Source of the DNA: Mytilus trossulus
Taxonomy: Eukaryota
Assembly (NCBI RefSeq): GCF_036588685.1
Contig: NC_086383.1
Coordinates: 70,990,001 to 71,054,000, forward strand
DNA length: 64,000 nt
Direction of reading: 5' to 3'
This document shows positions 1,995 through 31,218 of this stretch, in pieces. Positions within the stretch are counted from its first letter, which is position 1, and the number at the start of each line of letters is the position of its first letter. A model generated the notes under the pieces. It saw only the letters and a list, made by a program, of their open reading frames with translations. It was not told the origin of the DNA and did not search any database. The position numbers and the translations under genes were made by a program.

Positions 1995-2029
1995 ATGTTT
2001 TCCTTATCCATTTATTATTTTTTGATACA

Positions 2030-2593
2030 TTTTAGCACTGTTTTATTCTGTATTCTCTATTTTAGCACTGTTTTATTCTGTATTCTCTATTTTAGCACTG
2101 TTTTATTCTGTATTCTCTATTTTTGCACTGTTTTATTCTGTATTCTCTATTTTAGCACTATTTTCTTCTGTATTCTCTATTTTTAGCATTGTTTTATTCT
2201 GTATTTTCTATTTTAGCACTGTTTTATTCTGTATCTTCTATTTTTAGCAGTTTTATTCTGTAGTTTATATTTTGCACTGTTTTATTTTGTATTCTCTATT
2301 TTTAGCACTGTTTTATTCTCTATTTTAGCACTGTTTTATTCTGTATTCTCTATTTTAGCACTATTTTATTCTGTATTCTCTATTTTTAGCACTGTTTTAT
2401 TCTGTATTCTCTATTTTAGCACTGCTTCATTCTGTATTCTCTATTTTTTGCAGTTTTATTCTGTATTCTCTATTTTTAGCAGTTTTAATCTGTATTCTCT
2501 ATTTTTAGCAGTTTTATTCTGTATTCTCTATTTTTAGCACTGTTTTATTCTGTATTCTCTATTTTTAGCACTGTTTTATTCTGTATTCTCTAT
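2030..2593. repeat. ~30-31 bp tandem minisatellite (TTTTAGCACTGTTTTATTCTGTATTCTCTAT)n, about 19 copies
   Basis: Directly visible tandem repeat. It explains the spurious (FSTVLFCILY)n ORF at 1995-2186. Confidence 0.95.
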
Positions 2594-2699
2594 GTTTTGT
2601 GGGATAGGATTCTTAATACTATAACAGTATCTACAAGGAGATTTTAAGTGAAATGCACATTCAACAACCAATCAACAAAAAGGGTTGCCTACTTATTTT

Positions 2700-2920: not shown

Positions 2921-3216
2921 TATTTTTAGTACCTTTGGTTTACTTTTTAATCGCTGTGTGTGAAAAATCATAACTAAAATGCCTGCCAAAATGGTTATTG
3001 GGTATAAATTAATTATCTTTCTTTTGGCAATATAGGAAAAGTGTACTGTCATAACTAGTCTCTAAACACAATAACTCCAAATGGAGCTTTCGTTAGTAGA
3101 AGCCATATTAACTATGTGTATCAGTGAGAAAAAAGGTAAAAGCATAAAAATATAGTATATATATATATATACATGTATACCAATACACATAATTAACAGC
3201 GCCTGGTAATGTTTTA

Positions 3217-3261
3217 CAGCCTGACCGGTTTCGGTCCAAAAAGGACCTTTATCAGAGGCAG
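3217..3261 (-). ncRNA. Minimal type I hammerhead ribozyme motif (Penelope-like element type, G8A core variant)
   Basis: Minus strand reads CUGCCU-CUGAUAA-A-GGUCC-UUUUU-GGACC-GAAA-CCGG-UC-AGGCUG. Stem I is GCCU/AGGC, the core is CUGAUAA...GAAA, stem II is GGUCC/GGACC, stem III is the palindrome ACCGGU, and the cleavage triplet is GUC. Confidence 0.7.
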
Positions 3262-3289
3262 AATGTTTGCACCCTATTTATATAGATAT

Positions 3290-3490
3290 GGTAACCGGCG
3301 GTTTAGTAAACCGGCGTTCGAGTTTCAGATTAACAGCCCGTTGAGTTAACCTGCGGTTCAGATTAACCGCCCATTGAGTAATCCAGCAGTTCAGAGTTCA
3401 CCAGCAGTTCAGAGTTAACTGGTGGATCAACATGTTATCCAGTGGACGAATATATATCTGGTTGATATCTAAACAGGTTCAGTTATCCTT
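3290..3490. repeat. Degenerate ~17-20 bp repeats (TAACC-GCGGTTCAGAG-like) next to the hammerhead motif
   Basis: Recurrent GTTAAC/TAACC...GTTCAGA motifs, more GC-rich than the flanks. Confidence 0.5.
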
Positions 3491-4012
3491 TCAGGCAAAA
3501 ATCCCAGTGGGTCAGTAGTGGTTTTTATTTTTGCGATTTTTGAATGGAATGAGAAAAACTATATCTCCAGTGAAAGCGGTTGGTAGTTTAGAAATTTTTT
3601 ACCGATAACCGCTACGAATTTCAGCTGACTGCGACTATAGGTATGTTGAAAACAAATGTACAATCAACAATAAACAACAACGTGGAGTTACTAGCATTAC
3701 TGCATATTCATCATGTTCATCGGTATTTCAGTGTGAATATTGACAAAGTAATAGAAAAGTTTGTTTCTGCCTAGACCCAAAGATCAGAATTTTAACGATT
3801 TTGAGTAAATTCTGTATCATGTGTTGTTTATGTAATATTACTCTATTCAGAAGATTTATAGTTATACAATCATAATTTTGTTATAAGTTCCTACTACATA
3901 TAGCACCTCTTTTAACCGCCCTATGACCGAAAACCGGAATAAAAACTATGTTTCTGTATAAAAGGGTCTCGCTCTGCAGTTGTTGCTTGAACATCGTTTC
4001 TTTCTAACGCCT

Positions 4013-7000
4013 TCTTCTTCTTCTTTTAGTTTCCGCACTCCATCATAATATTGATGACTATGTGCCGTGCATGCGTGGGTAAAATTTACAATTTTATATT
4101 TACATCAACAACAAAAATTTAATAAAGAAATAATAACTTGTTTTTGGTTTTCACTGTACATATAAGATAAAACTATTTACAAGGTGTTACATTACATGGT
4201 GTAGTATTGGTTGAGAACAGATATAGGAATCTGTTCTCTGAATGTTTCAACTGTGGTGCATTGGACAGCAGTAACTGGTAAAAGGTTCCATTGGACGATT
4301 GTCCTAGGATAGAATGAAAATTTATATGAGTCTTTTTTTGCCTGTATGTGCCTGAATGAGTGACTATGAGTGTATTGTCTTGTTCGATTGTCTGATGGTA
4401 TTAACAAGTTCGTAGGGTATATTGCTACTTGGTGGTGTATAATTTTGAAGAAAAATATAAGCCTTGTTCTTATTCTTCTAATTTCAAGTGTTGGCCAGTT
4501 AAGATGGTTAAGCATGTTTGTCACAGAGCTGGTGTTATGATATCGATTACATATATATCTGGCTGCGCGTCTTTGGACCATTTCTATTTGTGATTTTTGG
4601 GATTTTGTATGTGGGTCCCAGATGCAGCTACCATACTCTAGCTTTGGTCTCACAAGTGAGATATAGGCCTTTTCTTTAACTGACTGCGAGCTGACTTTAA
4701 GGTTTCTTTTGATAAAATTTAGTTGTTTAGTTGCATTTGCTGTGATGTTATTTATGTGTTTGTTAAATTTTAAATCAGTTTGTATGGTTAAGCCAAGATA
4801 TTTGGTAGATGTTTCTTGTTGCAAAGTGTGCCCATGTAAGATGTAGTCATATGGGAGAGGTGTTTTCTTTGTTGTTACTTGGAGGACTGAACACTTGTCC
4901 GGATGGAAGGACATGAGCCAGTCCTCTTCCCACTTTGCTGCTGCAGTTAGGTCTTCTTGTAATTTTTCTGAGTCATTTTCATTTTTGATGGTTTTATATA
5001 TGATGCTATCATCTGCAAAAAGTCTAAGAGTGCCATGTTTTATGTAATCATTCAGATCATTTATGTACACCAGGAATAAGATGGGGCCAAGTACTGTTCC
5101 TTGAGGTACCCCTGATGTGACATGTATTTGTTCAGATTTGGTGCCTTCCAGTAATACCGTTTGTGTGCGGAGTGAGAGAAAGTCTTCTATCCAGTTCAGT
5201 GTTTGGTTGTCGACACCATAGTGTTTAAGTTTATGAAGTAGTCTTTTGTGAGGGACTTTGTCAAATGCTTTGGCAAAGTCCATCACAATTACATCAGTTT
5301 GGATGTTATCATTGCTGTATTTTGCCAGTTCTTGTATGAATGACACTAACTGGGTTTCGCAAGATCTTGAGGAGCGAAACCCATGTTGTAGATCGTATAG
5401 AATGTTGTTATTTTCTAGATGTGCCATGATGTTACTTGCTAATACATGCTCCATGATCTTACATAGGATGCATGTTAGGGATATAGGCCTGTAGTTGATA
5501 GGGTTGTGTTTATCTCCCTTTTTAAATACTGGGCAGACGTTGGCATGCTTCCAGTCAGTTGGTATTTTTCCGGTGTTCAGGGATTTTTCAAATATTAATG
5601 TTATTATGGGTGCGATGTCAGTACTTAGTTCTTTAAGCACACGCCCATATATGCCATCTGGCCCTGTGGCCTTGTGTGGGTTAATCTTTCCTAGTAGTTT
5701 TTGTATGCCTTTCTCTGAAATTTGTATGGTGTTCATTTTAGGATGTTTAGAAATTCCCATGTCCGGTATTGTTTCGCTGGATGTTTCTGTTGAGAATGCC
5801 TTCTGAAATTGATTGTTTAGCAAATTGGCCTTTTCTTCGGTGTTATCAGTTAAAATGCCATCTTTTCTTAATGCTGCAATGCCTGAACTGTCATTTTTCA
5901 TGTTTTTAATATAGCTGTACAAGTTTTTAGGTTGTCTTTTAAATATGGGATTGTCTGGTTCGTTTACTGGGAGATCAAATATCATGTTCTCGATGTAGTT
6001 CCAGTAGGATCTTCTCATATCTGTTTGAATTGATTTTTTGAGATGCTTGTACTTTTTCTTCAGTTGTTCATTTTTTCTACTCTTTTTATGAAGTCGTTTA
6101 GCTTTGTTGATGTCAATTTTAAGCTTGTTGTTTACCCATGGTAGTTTTTTCTTGTTTGTAACTATTTTGTGAGGGATATTAGCTTCTACTGATTGTGTTA
6201 GAGCTTCTGTGAACGTATTCCATAGAATATTTGAGGTGGATTCTTTAAATTGTTCTTTAATTTTGCATAAGAGTGTTCCTAAATCTATTTTTATTTTGCT
6301 CCAGTCGGCTTTGGTATATTGTAAAACTTTGATAGGTTGTTTTTTGTTTCTTTTTAAAGATACATTACATTCAGAATAGACAATGTCGTGGTCCGCATTC
6401 CCAATAGGGGGCATAGTTTCTGTCTTGTTAACTATACTTGGTGTGTTTGTGAGTAGGAGGTCGAGTATTCGGTCACCTCTAGTAGGCTTATTTACAATTT
6501 GCTCTAAAGAGTGGTCATTTATGATGTCTAAAAGTTGTGTGTGCAATTTAATTTCTGGTTTGCCTGGAATAATGCATGGTACTTCCCAGTCAATGTGGCC
6601 GAGGTTGAAATCGCCACCTAGCATCACAGTGGTTTTTGTATTATTATTGATGCGATTAAGTGAGATGTTAAGATTTTCAAGTGATATGCCATTATCTGAA
6701 GGTGGTCTATAGTAACAGCCTAGTATGAGTTTTCTTGCATTTGTCATGTTTATTTCTGCCCATATACTTTCAGAGTCTGTTTGTAATTCTCTGATTTCAT
6801 TGGATAGTAATTGTGTTGATATGGCAATGAGGACACCACCGTAGCTTTGGTTATTATTGGATGGAGGGCGATCTTTCCTATAAACTGTATAATCATTAGC
6901 TGGAAAGAATTCAGATGATAAGATATCGCTACTGAGCCAGGTTTCAGTGCCCAATATTATTTCTGGTTGTACAGATGAAATAATTTCATCAAGTTCAGCC

Positions 7001-7872
7001 TTTTTATTTTTAATAGACTGAAAGTTTATTGTTAATATTTTCAATGGTGTTTCTTTCTTTTGAGCTCTCTTGATATAAGTTTGTTTTATAGGTGACGATG
7101 TTGCTTTAGGTAAGCCAGGACTTCCTACTGAATGTTCTGATAATGGTGCGAATGAGTTAGATGTTTCAGGTATGGTAAGATCAAATATGGATGAGGAGAA
7201 GTTTGGCATACCACATTGTATGCATGCCCAAGATATATTTGATGAATCCATACATTGATATACATTAGATGACATGCCTTGACAGTTTGCATGATACCAA
7301 ACATCACATGAATCGCAACAGAGTGCTTTTTGTTTCCATGTGACCGCTTTTCCACATGTTCCGCAGGGCCACCTAGGTGTTCTGGGGCCTGGGTTTATTT
7401 CAGTGTCTCCAGATAATGCAAGTACTAGAAAACATAAGTATGTGTTTGATTGTTTAATGTACCTTTGATGTGATTTATCTGTAATAGTTCTGTGGTTTGT
7501 AAAGTACACTGATGATATGCTATGCATATTACCAAGAGAATCTATTAAGTCAGCTGGTGTGTTCATTTGTACAGGTTGGTTGTACAATTTATGGAATAGT
7601 ATTGATAGTATGACTATGTGAAGTGTTAATACATAGGCCATGACTACAACTTTTGAAGTCAGATATGGTTCTTTTATAAAATTATAATAGCCTTTGCCTG
7701 TATCCATGCATTTGTTTTCCACTGTATCCCATAGTAATTTAGTTTGTGTGTTAATAAGTGCGTGTGGGTGTGTGGATGTTTGTCTAACATTCTAGACTTT
7801 GTATTTCACAGATGTGATTGACTGCTTACCAAAAATAAGAAAAAGATATCTGTAATCAAAATATTGGAAAGG
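4013..7872 (-). mobile_element. Apparently full-length single-ORF non-LTR retrotransposon (CR1/L2 group)
   Basis: Intact 1176-codon ORF. The 3' tail is (AAG)n (plus strand CTTCTT, ~4011-4025), preceded by a stem-loop. Candidate 8-bp TSD TAACGCCT at 4005-4012 and 7873-7880. Confidence 0.85.
4192..7722 (-). CDS. LINE polyprotein: 2A-like peptide, PHD finger, APE endonuclease, reverse transcriptase
   Basis: GDTEINPGP; C4HC3 PHD (CGTC...CDSC...H..C...CIQC); APE motifs (INFQSI, GTETWL, YRKDR, GDFN, DHDIV); RT motifs (NYRPISL, QHGFR, DFAKAFDKV, GVPQGTVLGP, LFADD, KYLG). The ORF-track start is GTG, so the real start may be a downstream ATG. Confidence 0.95.
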   Translation of the reverse strand: MENKCMDTGKGYYNFIKEPYLTSKVVVMAYVLTLHIVILSILFHKLYNQPVQMNTPADLIDSLGNMHSISSVYFTNHRTITDKSHQRYIKQSNTYLCFLVLALSGDTEINPGPRTPRWPCGTCGKAVTWKQKALCCDSCDVWYHANCQGMSSNVYQCMDSSNISWACIQCGMPNFSSSIFDLTIPETSNSFAPLSEHSVGSPGLPKATSSPIKQTYIKRAQKKETPLKILTINFQSIKNKKAELDEIISSVQPEIILGTETWLSSDILSSEFFPANDYTVYRKDRPPSNNNQSYGGVLIAISTQLLSNEIRELQTDSESIWAEINMTNARKLILGCYYRPPSDNGISLENLNISLNRINNNTKTTVMLGGDFNLGHIDWEVPCIIPGKPEIKLHTQLLDIINDHSLEQIVNKPTRGDRILDLLLTNTPSIVNKTETMPPIGNADHDIVYSECNVSLKRNKKQPIKVLQYTKADWSKIKIDLGTLLCKIKEQFKESTSNILWNTFTEALTQSVEANIPHKIVTNKKKLPWVNNKLKIDINKAKRLHKKSRKNEQLKKKYKHLKKSIQTDMRRSYWNYIENMIFDLPVNEPDNPIFKRQPKNLYSYIKNMKNDSSGIAALRKDGILTDNTEEKANLLNNQFQKAFSTETSSETIPDMGISKHPKMNTIQISEKGIQKLLGKINPHKATGPDGIYGRVLKELSTDIAPIITLIFEKSLNTGKIPTDWKHANVCPVFKKGDKHNPINYRPISLTCILCKIMEHVLASNIMAHLENNNILYDLQHGFRSSRSCETQLVSFIQELAKYSNDNIQTDVIVMDFAKAFDKVPHKRLLHKLKHYGVDNQTLNWIEDFLSLRTQTVLLEGTKSEQIHVTSGVPQGTVLGPILFLVYINDLNDYIKHGTLRLFADDSIIYKTIKNENDSEKLQEDLTAAAKWEEDWLMSFHPDKCSVLQVTTKKTPLPYDYILHGHTLQQETSTKYLGLTIQTDLKFNKHINNITANATKQLNFIKRNLKVSSQSVKEKAYISLVRPKLEYGSCIWDPHTKSQKSQIEMVQRRAARYICNRYHNTSSVTNMLNHLNWPTLEIRRIRTRLIFFFKIIHHQVAIYPTNLLIPSDNRTRQYTHSHSFRHIQAKKDSYKFSFYPRTIVQWNLLPVTAVQCTTVETFREQIPISVLNQYYTM

Positions 7873-8120: not shown

Positions 8121-9671
8121 TCTCTATCTCTATCTTCATATTTCCGCACTCAGTCACAACTTTGACTATTACGTGCCGTTGCATGCGTGGCTTATTTACA
8201 ATTAAAAAAGAAATAAATTTGCAGTAATATTACGTTACATTGCATTGGTGCTTAGAATAAATAATTAAAGTAAAAATATTACAGTGATTTAAATTTTTTT
8301 TTTGTGGATTGTTATCCTATGTATATTTCTTGTTAAAACTATGTACATGTTATGCATTTTTTTAGAATATTTGTGAAAGAGCAGATATAGAAATCTGCTC
8401 TTTGAAGCCGTCGACTGTTGTACAAAGGATTGCTGATGTAGGAAGTAGGTTCCATTGTATTATTGTATGTGGATAAAATGAAAACTTGTATGAATCTTTA
8501 TTTGTTTGAATTTGTTTAAAGTGGTTTGTATGTTTATTTCTTGTTCTACTGTCTGATTTAACTAGAAGATCTTTAGGGTAAATTGCTATGTGTTGGTGTA
8601 TGATCTTATAGAATACCACTAGTCTTGTTTGTATACGTCTCAGTTCTAATGTAGGCCACTGTAGGTGATCAAGCATGTTTGAGACAGAGCTGGTATTGTG
8701 ATATTTATTACATGTGTAGCGAGCAGCTCTGCGTTGGACCATCTCAATTTGGTTGATTTGACTTTTTGTGTGAGGGTCCCAGACGCAAGAACTGTACTCA
8801 AGCTTAGGTCTAACTAAAGACATGTATGCCCTTTCTTTGATTTTTTGTGATGAAACTTTAAGGTTACGTTTGAGAAAATTCAGTTGTCTGTTTGCATTAG
8901 CTGTTACATTATTGATGTGTTTATTCCATTTTAGATCAGATTGGATGGTTATGCCTAAATTTTGTAGCTGTTTCAGTTTGGAGAATGTGACTGGCCATGT
9001 AGGATGTAGTCATGGTTGACTGGTTTCTTTTTTTGTGTAATTCTAAGTATGGAGCATTTGTCTGGATGGAATGACATTAACCAGTCTTTTTCCCATTGTG
9101 CCGCTGAATTTAAATCCTGTTGTAGTTTGGCAGCATCATGTGTGTTTTTGATGTTTCTATAGATGATGCTGTCATCGGCAAATAATCTTAAGGTGCTGTG
9201 TTGTAAGTATTCTGGGAAATCGTTTATGTAAATGAGGAATAAAATTGGGCCAAGGACAGTGCCTTGTGGCACCCCAGATGTTACCCCATTTTTTTCTGAT
9301 TGTTCTCCATCTAGCATGACTGTTTGTGTACGGTTGTTTAAAAAGTCACCAATCCATTCCAAGGTATTATTCTCTATGCCGTAGTATTTTAATTTGTAAA
9401 AGTAATCTTTTGTGAGGGACTTTGTCAAAAGCTTTGGCAAAGTCCATCACAACGACATCAGTTTGTATGTTAATATTGTTGTCTCTTGCAAGGTCCTGAA
9501 TGAAAGATAATAGTTGTGTCTCACAAGAACGTTTTGATCGGAAGCCATGTTGTAATTCATATAAAATATTGTTTTTTTCAAGATGTTCCATTACTTGACT
9601 AGCTATGATATGCTCCATTATTTTGCAAAGAATACATGTTAGTGAAATAGGCCTGTAATTTATGGCATTGT
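8121..9671 (-). pseudogene. 5'-truncated, frameshifted copy of a related CR1-group LINE (RT C-terminal half plus 3' UTR)
   Basis: ORF fragments 9367-9618, 8973-9440 and 8362-8823 align in order to the RT/C-terminus of 4192-7722 (QHGFR, DFAKAFDKV, GVPQG, LFADD, RRAARY) but sit in different frames. The 3' end motif is shared and the tail is (ATAGAG)n. Confidence 0.92.
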
Positions 9672-9987
9672 CTCTTCTAGTTCAGGTTTTTTGTTTTTTA
9701 TTGATTGGCCCATTACAAACTCGGCCTATACTAATGATTGATGTTGTTTTAAAAATGCCACATCGGCGACATAGACCACACAGGAACAAATATATTGATT
9801 GTATTTATTTATGATTAGAGTTATGTGGTTAATTTATTGAGCAGTTCCGATATTTTTCAGTCAGACGCTACCAAATCTATAAATTTCGGAAGTCTCGGGG
9901 AGTACGAGATTTCATTAATTTTATACTGAAAAGCCTATCAGATTCATTTCCCGTTAGATATACTGTTAACAAAAAAATAAGAAAACA

Positions 9988-27697: not shown

Positions 27698-28273
27698 TTA
27701 CTTCTTCTTTGGTGTCTTCTTGGCTTTTGGTTTGGCTGCCTTCTTTTTGGCTGGTGACTTGGCTGCTGGCTTCTTTGGCTTGGCTGCTTTCTTTGCTGCT
27801 GGTTTTTTTGCTTTTGGTTTGGCCGCCTTTTTCTCTCCAGCTGGTTTCTTTGCTGCTGGCTTCTTTTTCTTGGGTGTGGTCTTTGCCTTCTTAGGCTTGG
27901 CGGCCTTAGGTTTGGCTGCTTTTTTTGCCTTTGCTGGCTTCTTTTTAACCACTTTAGCCTCTCCAATTCTGAAAGAGCCGGATGCTCCAGTTCCCTTGGA
28001 CTGCTTCAAACTGTTGTTCTTAACTCCGGCTCTGAGTGCAAGTTTTAAATGAGCATTTACTGACTTGGCATCTTTTCCGACGTTGAAGTTGGCCATGATG
28101 TACTTCAGAATTGCTTGCCTTGAGGAACCTCCACGTTCTTTCAAAGCGGCGATGGCTTTTCCAATCATCTCGCTGTATTTAGGATGTGCGGAAGGCTTCT
28201 TTGGCTTGGCTGCTGCCTTTTTCTTTGGTGATTTAGCTGGTGCTACTGCTGGTGCTGCTGTTGCGTCTGCCAT
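27698..28273 (-). CDS. H1: Histone H1 (3' stem-loop falls in the gap)
   Basis: Identical 191-aa protein. Confidence 0.97.
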   Translation of the reverse strand: MADATAAPAVAPAKSPKKKAAAKPKKPSAHPKYSEMIGKAIAALKERGGSSRQAILKYIMANFNVGKDAKSVNAHLKLALRAGVKNNSLKQSKGTGASGSFRIGEAKVVKKKPAKAKKAAKPKAAKPKKAKTTPKKKKPAAKKPAGEKKAAKPKAKKPAAKKAAKPKKPAAKSPAKKKAAKPKAKKTPKKK

Positions 28274-31218
28274 TTTGAATGATTCAAAATATTATCCTTT
28301 ACGAAGTTTATACTACGAATAACGATTTGAAAATAACGCCATTCCAGGCCTCGTTTATTTATAACAGACGAACGCGGACCTCGACGAAGACACCCTTAAA
28401 AATAACTTGTAAAATCCATTACGCGATCTCGGTAAAATGATTATGTGCTTCTTCGAAGACTTTTATGATAATTTATAGTATAATTCTATCAAAAACATTC
28501 ACATATAGCATACCAAATTGCTCAACAGTCATTAATCTTGCATGTTAGATAAACTGTGTATTTTTCGATGTACACAGTAAAAAGATATTAATAGTTAAAG
28601 TAGAACCGACTGAATTGTCTTCGCAGGTATGTTGACAGAAAATTTACGAGTTTTTCTCATTACACAAATATTCTATCGTCGTAAAATTGTACAGCGGAAG
28701 AAAAATCATTTCTCTCTAGGTTTCTTTCCGTTTTTATTCACTGGAAGCATGTTCCTCCTCGTAATAAGTTTGTTTCCAGCTAGAGGGAAACACACAAAAA
28801 GTTCACGCGCCATTGTTTAATTGCAGATTTTTACTAAAACTTCAAATAACATTTTTATTCAACCCGAGCGAAATTTCGCAAACATTCAAGATTCGAATGA
28901 ACAAACCCAATATCTAGAATACGAATTTGAAACATCTTTTTATTTAATTTAGCGTTGGGAACTTTTCAGAGAGCGACTTTGTTTTCAGTGGATCTCAGGC
29001 ACTGAACAACTGTTCTGTATGATGCGTATTCGCTTTTATTTCCATTTTCATGTACAATTTGCGCTCTTTCAAGTCAAAAACTCGAATATGTCTTATAGAA
29101 TATACCATATTTTTCAACAAAATATATTTAATTAATTTTATTATCAATAACCGATGATCAGAGCTCAAAGTGGCCTGGCCGCCTGAAAGTTTCGATACAA
29201 ACAAAAACAAAACACGAAGATTTTTGTAGTTTTATAATTCGAAAGTGGTACATATCATTTGTATCTTAATTGACAATTACAAAAGTTCATTTATTTCCCC
29301 TAAAAAAGGGGAATGTGTGTCACAGTGAAGACTCTAGCTATACATATGCATTATACCTATATAAGCTATGCAAGTGAACCCAGAACCGGTAACGGGTGAA
29401 GCAGCATCCCGTGACACGGACGATTAAAAAGAGACGGAAGGACAAAAACACATCAGTGTGAACCATTGGACTTTGGGCAAAACATTTTCCCACTGTATTG
29501 AACTAAACCGCCAGCCCCTCCCCCTTTTTCCAAAAAAAACAAAATCCGGAGAAAAAAGGGGGGATATATAATAGGGTTCTCTTTTGAAGACATATTAGCA
29601 TAGCGTTTAATGGATGTTAGTACAAGATGTAATATGCTGTGTGTGTGGTTTTCTTCTTCATTAAGGCCAAATAAAAAAGAATATGTGTGCTTCCTACTCC
29701 CTATCTACCTTATATTTTAAGCTTAGTCATAGCATACCTTAAAGATTTTTTTTTTTTTTATCATTTTCCAATAAGCACAGATTTTTCAGTCTCCCATGTA
29801 CGTATATACTAGTAGGCTATGTTTGTGTGTGTCGTTAAGGTGCTGTCATTTCAATATGAAAATAAAGAAGGAGATGTGGTATGATTGCCAATGAGACAAC
29901 TATCCACCATAGTTCAAATGAAGTGGATGTAAGCAATTATAGACAACTGTATAGATGATCTTCAAAAATGAGAGAAAAAAACCTATACCGTGAACCTACA
30001 ATTCACGCGATACCTGTTATCAGAGAAATAACTTTTTCTTACTTTTGTACCACTGTCCGTCCATCCATCCTTGTGTTTGTTCATCACAGTAGTCACATGT
30101 GACGTCACTGTATTGTTTCGGGTTTATTCACCTCGCGTGCTGTCGACAGATTAAAACGACATAGCAAAGATACAGTCAAGTCGTCACACACTAAATAACA
30201 GAGAGAAAAAAGAAGAGAAAAATCACAGGACAACCATTTGAAAGAAACATAGAAACAAGTAGGTGCATTTATTTTATACACGAGTAAAACAAAGGTGAAA
30301 TTCTAAAGGTAGAGAATAGTGAAATTTGCATAATAAATCGCAGGTAATAAAATGACAAAATAATTGCAGAACTGTTAAATGTTGAACAAAAACCTCCGTA
30401 CTTTAGAGTTTCCTTCTAAATTTTAATACACAATATTATTGTAGTAATTTTGACAAATAATAAATAAAAAAATAAATATATATAACAGACAAACGTCACT
30501 GCATTCATTTGCTACTAATCTGATTTTGACGATACGTTATACATCTTTTGTATTGTGTACATTTTAACAGTTTATTTATATAGTACTGAAAAAAAGTACT
30601 GAGTTTAATTTCAGAGTTACCTCCCCATTGGCTAGTTGATATGAAATAGTGAGCCAACCTTTGACTTTGCATACGTGTAGAAAAAGTCCAACTAAAAATG
30701 TCAGTCAAGTTGAACACGAAGAAGAAGAGAGAAATGGAAAAACTCATATAATGACAAAAATGATTTTTCGGTTGAAGGTTAGCTGTGTGATTTTGACCCC
30801 CTTCCCCCTTAAAAAAGAGCACAATAAAACCCTAGCATGACTTCCTATATTCGTAGATTGTCATTCTAACGAAAACTGATTAGAAAAAGTTTTATTCAGT
30901 TCTAACAAGTGCGTGAAAATACACTGATATAACTTTAATGGTGCCTAACTACACAAAAAATATCCAAAAAAAACAGCTGCATACTTAGGTGTTAGAAATA
31001 GTATAGTCATAAGGAGTGAAATAAAACAAACAATGGAAATAATTTGACCAAAAAAATATTTCAGAGACCAGTGCAAAGTTCAGAGAAAGTAGGGCTCAGC
31101 TAGATTTAGTTTGATAACTAATGTACAACAATTGTAGATTCTTTTTGAATAAATTGGGTAGCCCTTAAAAGGGCTTTTGGTGGCTGAATAGCCTCTGCAG
31201 ACTGAAGTCTGGAACAGT

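What the first reader, a model, noticed from the sequence alone, without database searches (positions are those of the whole stretch)
3217..3261. Hidden minimal hammerhead ribozyme with palindromic stem III and a G8A core variant
Seen (minus strand): GCCU-CUGAUAA-AGGUCC-UUUUU-GGACC-GAAACCGGUC-AGGC, with every hammerhead element in type I order. Stem III is the self-complementary ACCGGU and is too short to fold as a monomer. Known: minimal hammerheads of this kind mark Penelope-like element repeats and retrozymes, and can cleave as dimers. The core is CUGAUAA instead of CUGANGA, which breaks the C3-G8 pair, so it is either a natural variant or a dead copy. No ORF annotation would reveal it.
Basis: partly seen in the sequence, partly recalled or inferred. 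Interest (0 to 1): 0.7.

Follow-up and report, generated by a model that had tools for sequence, protein, structure and literature searches.

The report
Dead hammerhead in Penelope-type retrozyme stub
The motif is a real but mutated, likely dead copy of a known minimal self-cutting "hammerhead" RNA, sitting in a truncated piece of a 1.1-1.2 kb non-coding repeat that likely borrows the enzyme of Penelope-type jumping genes; the odd core letter is private decay, but a few percent of sister copies begin exactly at the predicted cut site, which likely records the ribozyme cutting in living cells.

Summary
The motif is there as described (minus strand, 3259-3219; predicted cut 3223/3222) and is not chance. 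It is a textbook minimal type I hammerhead of Penelope-like elements (PLEs). G8A is not a natural variant: 96 of 100 listed sister motifs have G8, the six A8 copies lie on different backgrounds, and RNA reads carry G8. The window copy (3511-3026) is a lone, 5'-truncated, decayed stub. Its family is non-coding, with units of 1056-1219 bp, head-to-tail and back-to-back arrays, target duplications in 25 of 32 insertions, and two alternative 3' ends paired in 58 of 67 back-to-back insertions: the PLE signature. No protein-coding helper copy was found. The one notable point: 13 insertion junctions at 11 loci start exactly at the predicted cut site; in a sample chosen without regard to the hammerhead, 6 of 35 junctions do, and no other position has more than 2. 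This suggests cleavage in vivo in about 6% of templates. The scan noted such a footprint before in a shark PLE (e1-9207248). RNA reads showed no pile-up at the cut. New member of a known kind.

The parts
3026..3511 (-). 5'-truncated solo copy of the non-coding, hammerhead-bearing Penelope-type repeat; holds the last ~290 bp of one unit and the first ~178 bp after the cut site
   Evidence: BLASTN to sister loci, best 80% over 512 columns including gaps; no sister extends the match beyond 3511; 3' end at unit position ~176; no target duplication found
3295..3425 (-). degenerate 16-17 bp minisatellite of the repeat unit, upstream of the TATA box
   Evidence: Tandem Repeats Finder; same array in intact units
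3275..3284 (-). TATA-like box; in sister copies followed about 30 nt later by an initiator-like site just before stem I (promoter role inferred)
   Evidence: sequence; TATA start lies 40 nt before C3 in the family and 35-36 nt in 14 of 14 examined relatives from another animal
3261..3262 (-). site of an 11-nt deletion private to this copy, which shortens the TATA-to-hammerhead spacing
   Evidence: alignments
3219..3259 (-). minimal type I hammerhead: stem I 4 bp, stem II 5 bp, unpaired nt between 9 and 10.1, palindromic helix III
   Evidence: sequence; family alignment; cross-family covariation
3250..3250 (-). G8A substitution, breaks C3-G8; private decay
   Evidence: reads carry G8
3222..3223 (-). 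predicted scissile bond (GUC|AGGC); the position at which 13 junctions of sister insertions begin
3106..3198 (-). predicted 20-bp hairpin downstream of the cut; the family's short 3' ends fall in its loop; here the loop carries a (TA)n expansion
   Evidence: fold of the intact unit, z = -3.83; pairs kept in most of 112 copies but almost no two-sided changes; 3' ends
3026..3030 (-). long 3' end of the insertion (unit position ~176-178), one of two inferred reverse-transcription start sites
   Evidence: 98 of 216 3' ends at unit 165-196, 107 of 216 at unit 40-80

Best explanation
The motif is a mutated, likely inactive minimal hammerhead in a lone 5'-truncated copy of a 1.1-1.2 kb non-coding repeat that is likely a non-autonomous Penelope-like element (a long non-LTR retrozyme). 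How the family most likely works: (1, inferred) tandem arrays are transcribed from a TATA/initiator promoter directly before the hammerhead, reading into the next unit; (2, inferred from junctions, not assayed) two hammerheads pair through the palindromic ACCGGU, perhaps with protein help, and cut a minority of transcripts after GUC; (3, inferred from PMC11167929 and the shown ends) a PLE reverse transcriptase/GIY-YIG protein supplied in trans cuts both DNA strands with a stagger of about 13 nt and starts copying at two internal sites, about 61 and 178 nt after the cut site, one per strand; (4, shown) the result is back-to-back or solo copies with target duplications and variable 5' truncation, most running through the uncut hammerhead and about 6% stopping exactly at the cut site. 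The window copy then decayed neutrally (shown: G8A, 11-nt deletion, TA expansion) and has no neighbouring hammerhead to pair with.
For: Family core: 107 exact G8 motifs versus 4 with another base, all A; 96 of 100 listed G8 with the core left free. Six A8 copies on different subfamily backgrounds; G>A at G8 is 6 of 170, against 8 and 5 at two other non-CpG G sites. No coding: longest stop-free frame in a doubled unit is 100 codons; no PLE ORF continuous with any copy. Tandem spacing 1056-1219 bp, 15 spacings. Target duplications flush with the ends in 25 of 32 insertions examined, offset in 3, absent in 4. 3' ends bimodal, and 58 of 67 back-to-back pairs have one short and one long end, as for the two RT start sites of Anolis Poseidon (PMC11167929). 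The same core and palindrome with two-sided stem changes (4 pairs) lie about 100 nt before an RT + GIY-YIG frame in another animal's DNA (L193). Cut-site footprint: 13 of 19 matches lacking C17 are junctions beginning at the first base after the cut; controls one base downstream 0 junctions of 1 match, at unit position 12 0 of 3, one base upstream 1 of 3. Sample anchored downstream: 6 of 35 junctions at that base, at most 2 at any other; Poisson P = 6e-5 with the local rate.
Against: No helper element identified and no own-genome protein search was run for one. No cleavage assay; A8 inactivity rests on established chemistry (G8C and C3G kill a PLE hammerhead in PMC11167929; G8A itself is recalled). 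In genomic copies the core is no better conserved than flanks (11 of 831 versus 41 of 2635 and 22 of 1764 sites). RNA reads are few, run in both directions, mostly continue into unrelated sequence, and show no start or end pile-up at the cut. About half of the 13 junctions have 1-2 nt of microhomology that allows a start 1-2 bases later; counting only 4 of the 6 sampled ones gives P = 0.004. The promoter rests on motif spacing and 3 exact junctions of 9 matches at the predicted start. PMC11167929 found cleavage dispensable for insertion in vitro.
Confidence: 0.8

Rival explanations
1. Same element and same dead copy, but the junction excess at the cut site has another cause: a reverse-transcriptase pause at the folded hammerhead, a microhomology hotspot, or a splice acceptor (CAG|G) rather than self-cleavage.
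For: AG microhomology at several junctions, including overlap with the target duplication in L125 and L128. A looser cluster of starts at unit positions 16-22 and scattered starts at 4-11. No RNA end pile-up.
Against: A structural stall should stop at the 3' edge of stem I (position 5: 1 junction) rather than at position 1 (6 junctions). Starts at position 2 or 3 with random flanks predict more hits in the position-2 control than in the position-1 search; observed 0 versus 13. Upstream sequences differ among loci, so there is no common spliced exon. Several junctions have filler or blunt ends (L117, L118, L120, L122, L126, L133).
Confidence: 0.2
2. G8A is a natural, functional core variant propagated by its own subfamily.
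For: 6 of 170 copies carry A8, while G5, in the same TGA context, has 0 substitutions. An A8 core exists in Schistosoma PLEs (PMC4209133).
Against: The published variant is U3-A8; all 169 readable copies here keep C3. The A8 copies differ in subfamily markers and share no private change; other non-CpG G sites mutate as often. 14 of 15 and 3 of 3 reads over this base carry G8.
Confidence: 0.04
3. The family is a classical circular-RNA retrozyme: unit-length RNA is cut at both ends, circularised, accumulates, and is copied by rolling-circle reverse transcription, which makes the tandem arrays.
For: Head-to-tail arrays of up to four hammerheads with near-identical units. Most copies keep the joined hammerhead, as a religated circle would. 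The model is proposed in PMC7229834.
Against: At most 348 reads among 12.9 million read, concentrated on the part shared with short stubs, low over the rest of the unit. Read-through of uncut multimers explains the same arrays. The libraries may miss circles, so this is weak.
Confidence: 0.25
4. The hammerhead belongs to the adjacent LINE (ORF 4192-7791) as a 3' processing signal.
For: Same strand, about 930 nt downstream of the ORF.
Against: The LINE appears to end near 4010-4030 at a short repeat tail (sequence); window 3512-4200 had no match in sister loci; the hammerhead family inserts on its own with target duplications.
Confidence: 0.02

Closest known systems
Minimal type I hammerheads (min-HHR) in pLTRs of metazoan Penelope-like elements (Cervera and De la Pena 2014, PMC4209133)
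   Same: Fits the published consensus: U-rich lead, CUGANGA plus one unpaired base, G10.1-C11.1, short helix I, palindromic 15.2-16.2 and loop 3, AU-rich tail; mostly single motifs in truncated copies or opposite-strand pairs.
   Different: This copy has C3 with A8 (broken), not the U3-A8 covariant of Schistosoma. Helix II is 5 bp rather than 7-8. It sits in a non-coding unit, not beside an ORF.
Animal non-LTR retrozymes (Cervera and de la Pena 2020, PMC7229834; Li, Clavereau and Pollet 2026, bioRxiv 10.64898/2026.07.22.740005)
   Same: Non-coding, AT-rich (38% GC) tandem units with one type I hammerhead each, no LTR, long target duplications, many solo copies, PLEs as proposed helpers.
   Different: Unit of 1056-1219 bp exceeds the 150-450 bp and 51-972 bp reported (the 2026 pipeline capped the period at 1000). 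Minimal rather than canonical hammerhead. Only a few hundred copies. No abundant RNA seen; circles untested. I could not compare sequences with the 350-390 bp mussel retrozymes (supplement unreadable).
Insertion architecture of endonuclease-positive PLEs; Poseidon from Anolis (Craig et al. 2021, PMC8557442; Frangieh et al. 2024, PMC11167929)
   Same: Partial tandems, inverted 5'-truncated partner, two 3' ends downstream of the hammerhead, a tail on one side only, AT-rich targets, mostly uncut templates.
   Different: Tail about 117 nt instead of 30-40. No ORF. A genomic excess of 5' ends at the cut site, whereas that study found no RNA reads beginning or ending there.

Membership tests
PLE-type minimal hammerhead (min-HHR) | Core CUGANGA...GAAA...UH in type I order | tested here: met
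   Met by the family (96 of 100); see next row for the window copy
PLE-type minimal hammerhead (min-HHR) | C3-G8 pair (or a covariant pair) in this copy | tested here: not met
   C3 with A8 at 3255/3250; so a decayed member, not a working one
PLE-type minimal hammerhead (min-HHR) | Unpaired nucleotide between 9 and 10.1; G10.1-C11.1; palindromic helix III | tested here: met
   consensus in the PMC4209133 supplement passage
PLE-type minimal hammerhead (min-HHR) | Covariation of helices I and II | tested here: inconclusive
   None within the family; 4 pairs with two-sided change across 15 chosen motifs from this family and metagenome relatives, essentially two or three lineages, core fixed by the search pattern
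PLE-type minimal hammerhead (min-HHR) | Self-cleavage, as dimer or protein-assisted | not testable with these tools
   Only indirect: dimer is the cofold minimum for the window motif but not for the L035 motif; junction excess
Non-autonomous Penelope-like element | Partial-tandem and inverted 5'-truncated arrangement | tested here: met
Non-autonomous Penelope-like element | Two 3' ends giving a one-sided tail | tested here: met
   205 of 216 ends in two clusters; 58 of 67 pairs short plus long
Non-autonomous Penelope-like element | Target-site duplication | tested here: met
   25 of 32 flush, 11-19 nt including microhomology; not found for the window copy
Non-autonomous Penelope-like element | Sequence shared with the pLTR of an autonomous PLE in the same genome | tested here: inconclusive
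   No ORF-linked copy among the fetched loci; PLE RT fragments occur in 4 fetched loci but not joined to the element; no genome-wide protein search
Non-LTR retrozyme | Non-coding tandem units each with a type I hammerhead | tested here: met
   15 head-to-tail spacings, no ORF; arrays
Non-LTR retrozyme | Unit size of a few hundred bp | tested here: not met
   1056-1219 bp; lowers 'typical retrozyme', not 'works like one'
Non-LTR retrozyme | Abundant unit-length linear or circular RNA | tested here: inconclusive
   Low, two-directional, mostly read-through reads in 2 RNA-seq runs; 0-4 reads in 3 miRNA runs; libraries may miss circles

The most novel reading that the evidence does not exclude
The genome holds a fossil record that a minimal PLE hammerhead cuts in the germ line: about 6% of insertions that reach the ribozyme start at the scissile bond to the nucleotide. 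Together with the strict short/long pairing of the two 3' ends, this points to a two-headed insertion complex in which two RNAs, possibly held together by the palindromic helix III, are each primed from a different site. The family, the longest animal retrozyme-like unit I found described in the papers read, would be a compact substrate for testing what PLE hammerheads are for.
Probability: 0.4. Interest if true: 0.6.

Novelty: new member of a known kind. Interest (0 to 1): 0.4.

Why it matters
The flagged copy itself matters little: it is a broken stub. The family bears on an open question. PMC4209133 proposed self-scission without in vivo evidence, PMC8557442 calls the function of PLE hammerheads unclear, and PMC11167929 found cleavage dispensable in vitro and no RNA reads ending at the cut site. 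Insertions that begin exactly at the scissile bond are indirect evidence that cleavage happens in cells that transmit insertions, at a low rate that fits uncut RNA being the main template. The short non-coding unit with two well-defined start sites makes cleavage, dimerisation and trans-mobilisation directly testable. Three paper searches (listings only, open-licence library) showed no title or abstract start reporting such a genomic footprint; that is a limited check.

Tried and rejected
Rfam: no hammerhead model hit, even on intact copies, so it gives no test. Functional A8 subfamily: rejected. Link to the neighbouring LINE: rejected. Autonomous copy with the same hammerhead: the 100 listed of 103 relaxed-pattern matches all look like this family; ORF scans of loci L031-L114 and L141-L188 found none joined to a PLE ORF. 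Naiad as helper: Naiad-like fragments (DKA motif) abut the element's 5' end in inverted orientation in L088 and, 40-50 nt away, in L180, but such fragments are common in the fetched loci, so this stays a weak lead. Selection on the core in genomic copies: not seen. Strand-biased G>A editing as cause of A8: G>A and C>T rates are alike. Covariation in the downstream hairpin: almost none (the table was in the wrong register and is discarded). Viral contigs: 48 pattern matches, none passed my stem filter. Sequencing runs: no RNA holder listed on record; laid raw reads showed no end pile-up. Paper searches for G8A data found nothing usable. Earlier-findings search by sequence was blank. The first fuzzy-match script timed out.

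Full report
Observation. The motif is present at the stated place on the minus strand, with the predicted cut between 3223 and 3222. The A before stem II is the unpaired base between positions 9 and 10.1. A descriptor for such motifs found 1 site in the first 15 kb and none in 300 simulated regions. Rfam does not detect it, nor intact sister copies.

Context. The window is from a 1.3-Gb, AT-rich genome in 541 contigs. The host is probably a bivalve mollusc; that is my guess from composition and the histone H1 array, not checked. The motif lies in a repeat copy spanning 3511-3026, about 80% identical with gaps to its best sister. The LINE upstream on the same strand (PHD, endonuclease, RT) is a separate element.

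Is A8 a variant? No. An exact pattern found 107 motifs with G8 and 4 with another base, all A, this copy included. With the core left free, 119 motifs matched; of the 100 listed, 96 have G8 and 4 have A8, 6 vary at the two free positions, and none at C3, U4, G5, A6 or A9. Among 170 aligned copies (a set partly chosen by these patterns) 163 have G8, 6 A8 and 1 U8. The A8 copies differ in subfamily markers and share no private change, and other non-CpG G sites show up to 8 G>A changes. In 76 copies chosen by a downstream anchor, the core is no more conserved than the flanks (11 of 831 versus 41 of 2635 and 22 of 1764 sites), as expected for neutral decay after insertion. Reads over position 3250 carry G8 in 14 of 15 and 3 of 3 cases, and none of the raw reads matches this copy at 99% or more; those runs are presumably from other individuals. 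The copy also has a private 11-nt deletion after its TATA box and no second hammerhead nearby. Single G8C or C3G changes abolish cleavage of a PLE hammerhead (PMC11167929); that G8A does likewise is recalled, not from a call.

What the family is. The unit is 1056-1219 bp (15 spacings), 38% GC, without an ORF. It holds two minisatellites, a TATA box, the hammerhead and a predicted 20-bp hairpin. Copies form head-to-tail arrays and back-to-back inverted pairs. Of 216 3' ends, 107 lie 40-80 nt and 98 lie 165-196 nt after the cut site; 58 of 67 back-to-back pairs have one of each (three of the 67 look like one duplicated event). Target duplications lie flush with the ends in 25 of 32 hand-picked insertions, offset in 3, absent in 4. 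This is the PLE pattern of PMC8557442, and the two ends match the two internal reverse-transcription starts shown for Anolis Poseidon (PMC11167929), though the tail is about 117 nt rather than 30-40. In a metagenome scan, 14 of 22 matches were one related family, apparently from an animal, with the same core and palindrome, changed but paired stems, and a TATA-like box 35-36 nt before C3; in L193 the motif precedes a frame with RT and GIY-YIG domains. I found no coding copy of the window's family, and did not run a genome-wide protein search for one.

Cut-site footprint. A genome-wide pattern for copies lacking C17 gave 19 matches: 6 are point changes in whole hammerheads and 13, at 11 loci, are junctions at which the element begins at the first base after the predicted cut. 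Controls gave 0 junctions of 1 match one base downstream, 0 of 3 at position 12, and 1 of 3 one base upstream, which may be a chance C. For a test that does not depend on the hammerhead I took the 100 listed of 167 matches to a downstream anchor. Thirty-five are junctions between positions +12 and -76 (12 rows with indels or complex ends and 2 rows too near the reference edge were set aside; 51 run further upstream). Six fall on the cut-site base and at most two on any other; Poisson P = 6e-5 at the local rate, 0.004 if two microhomology cases are dropped. That is 6 of 92 copies reaching the site. A structural stall should stop four bases earlier, and splicing should give a shared upstream exon; neither fits. 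A weaker cluster sits 41 nt upstream at the initiator-like base: 3 exact junctions among 9 matches, plus 3 events compatible through microhomology.

Against. RNA data give no direct support: 348 and 35 reads in two RNA-seq runs and 2, 4 and 0 in three miRNA runs, in both directions, mostly continuing into unrelated sequence, with no pile-up of ends. The double-hammerhead dimer is the cofold minimum for the window motif (-34.7 kcal/mol) but not for the L035 motif, where a different pairing wins; the intermolecular helix III adds -9.7 kcal/mol in both. Cleavage, promoter, helper and circle are all inferred.

Papers. PMC4209133: parts 1-2 of 4 and supplement passages (one supplementary file not searched). 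PMC7229834: parts 2-4 of 6; its supplement could not be read and may hold the mussel hammerhead sequences that would show whether this family was seen. bioRxiv 10.64898/2026.07.22.740005: parts 1-3 of 5, no supplements. PMC11167929: parts 1-2 of 4. PMC8557442: passages and section 6. PMC6155905: passages. Others: search listings only.

Earlier scan notes. I found the footprint before the look-up. Unchecked notes report the same footprint in a shark PLE, starts at the hammerhead's front edge in other fish, and a 477-bp retrozyme with the PLE insertion signature in another genome. They are leads, not support.

Verdict. Interest 0.4, carried by the family's junction record rather than by the flagged copy.

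Noticed in passing
window 15362-62093, minus strand: Tandem array of 14 linker-histone H1 ORFs, period about 3.52 kb, with no other long ORF in the unit; 13 have the histone 3' stem-loop. The copy at 27698-28291 follows a shortened spacer and has no stem-loop hit, and there is a longer gap at about 46-50.8 kb. H1-only arrays are recalled from mussels.
   Followed up: partly
window 4192-7791, minus strand: Intact 1199-codon LINE-type frame with PHD finger, endonuclease and RT domains; a frameshifted older relative lies directly upstream at 8141-9681.
   Followed up: partly
window 3512-3680: A different repeat abuts the 5' end of the hammerhead copy; RNA reads from many loci break off at 3639-3640 with varied flanks. 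No match in fetched loci. Could be an inverted partner from another family.
   Followed up: partly
L088:1314-3350 and L180:984-1310: The element's truncated 5' end is joined back-to-back to a 5'-truncated Naiad-like PLE (DKA motif); in L088 an imperfect duplication of about 15 nt may flank the composite. Weak hint that a hammerhead-less Naiad could mobilise this family.
   Followed up: partly
L193:2469-5702 (metagenome contig, probably animal DNA): Apparently intact PLE with a minimal hammerhead, an upstream frame of about 250 codons overlapping a second frame with RT and C-terminal GIY-YIG, suggesting two ORFs or a frameshift.
   Followed up: partly
L163 and L167 at 1501-1502: Two of the three insertions that begin exactly at the predicted transcription start have a G just before it, as copying of a cap would leave (recalled for LINE-1); the third has T.
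   Followed up: partly
family unit positions 16-22 (L040, L067, L070, L077, L081, L086): A loose second cluster of six 5' junctions at a second CAGGC motif 18 nt after the cut site; unexplained.
   Followed up: no
run X24, loose end at window 3223 / L035:8739: 21-23 reads join one unrelated sequence to the element at C17, i.e. a transcribed insertion beginning at or one base before the cut site.
   Followed up: no
window 2029-2598: 30-bp minisatellite, about 19 copies.
   Followed up: no
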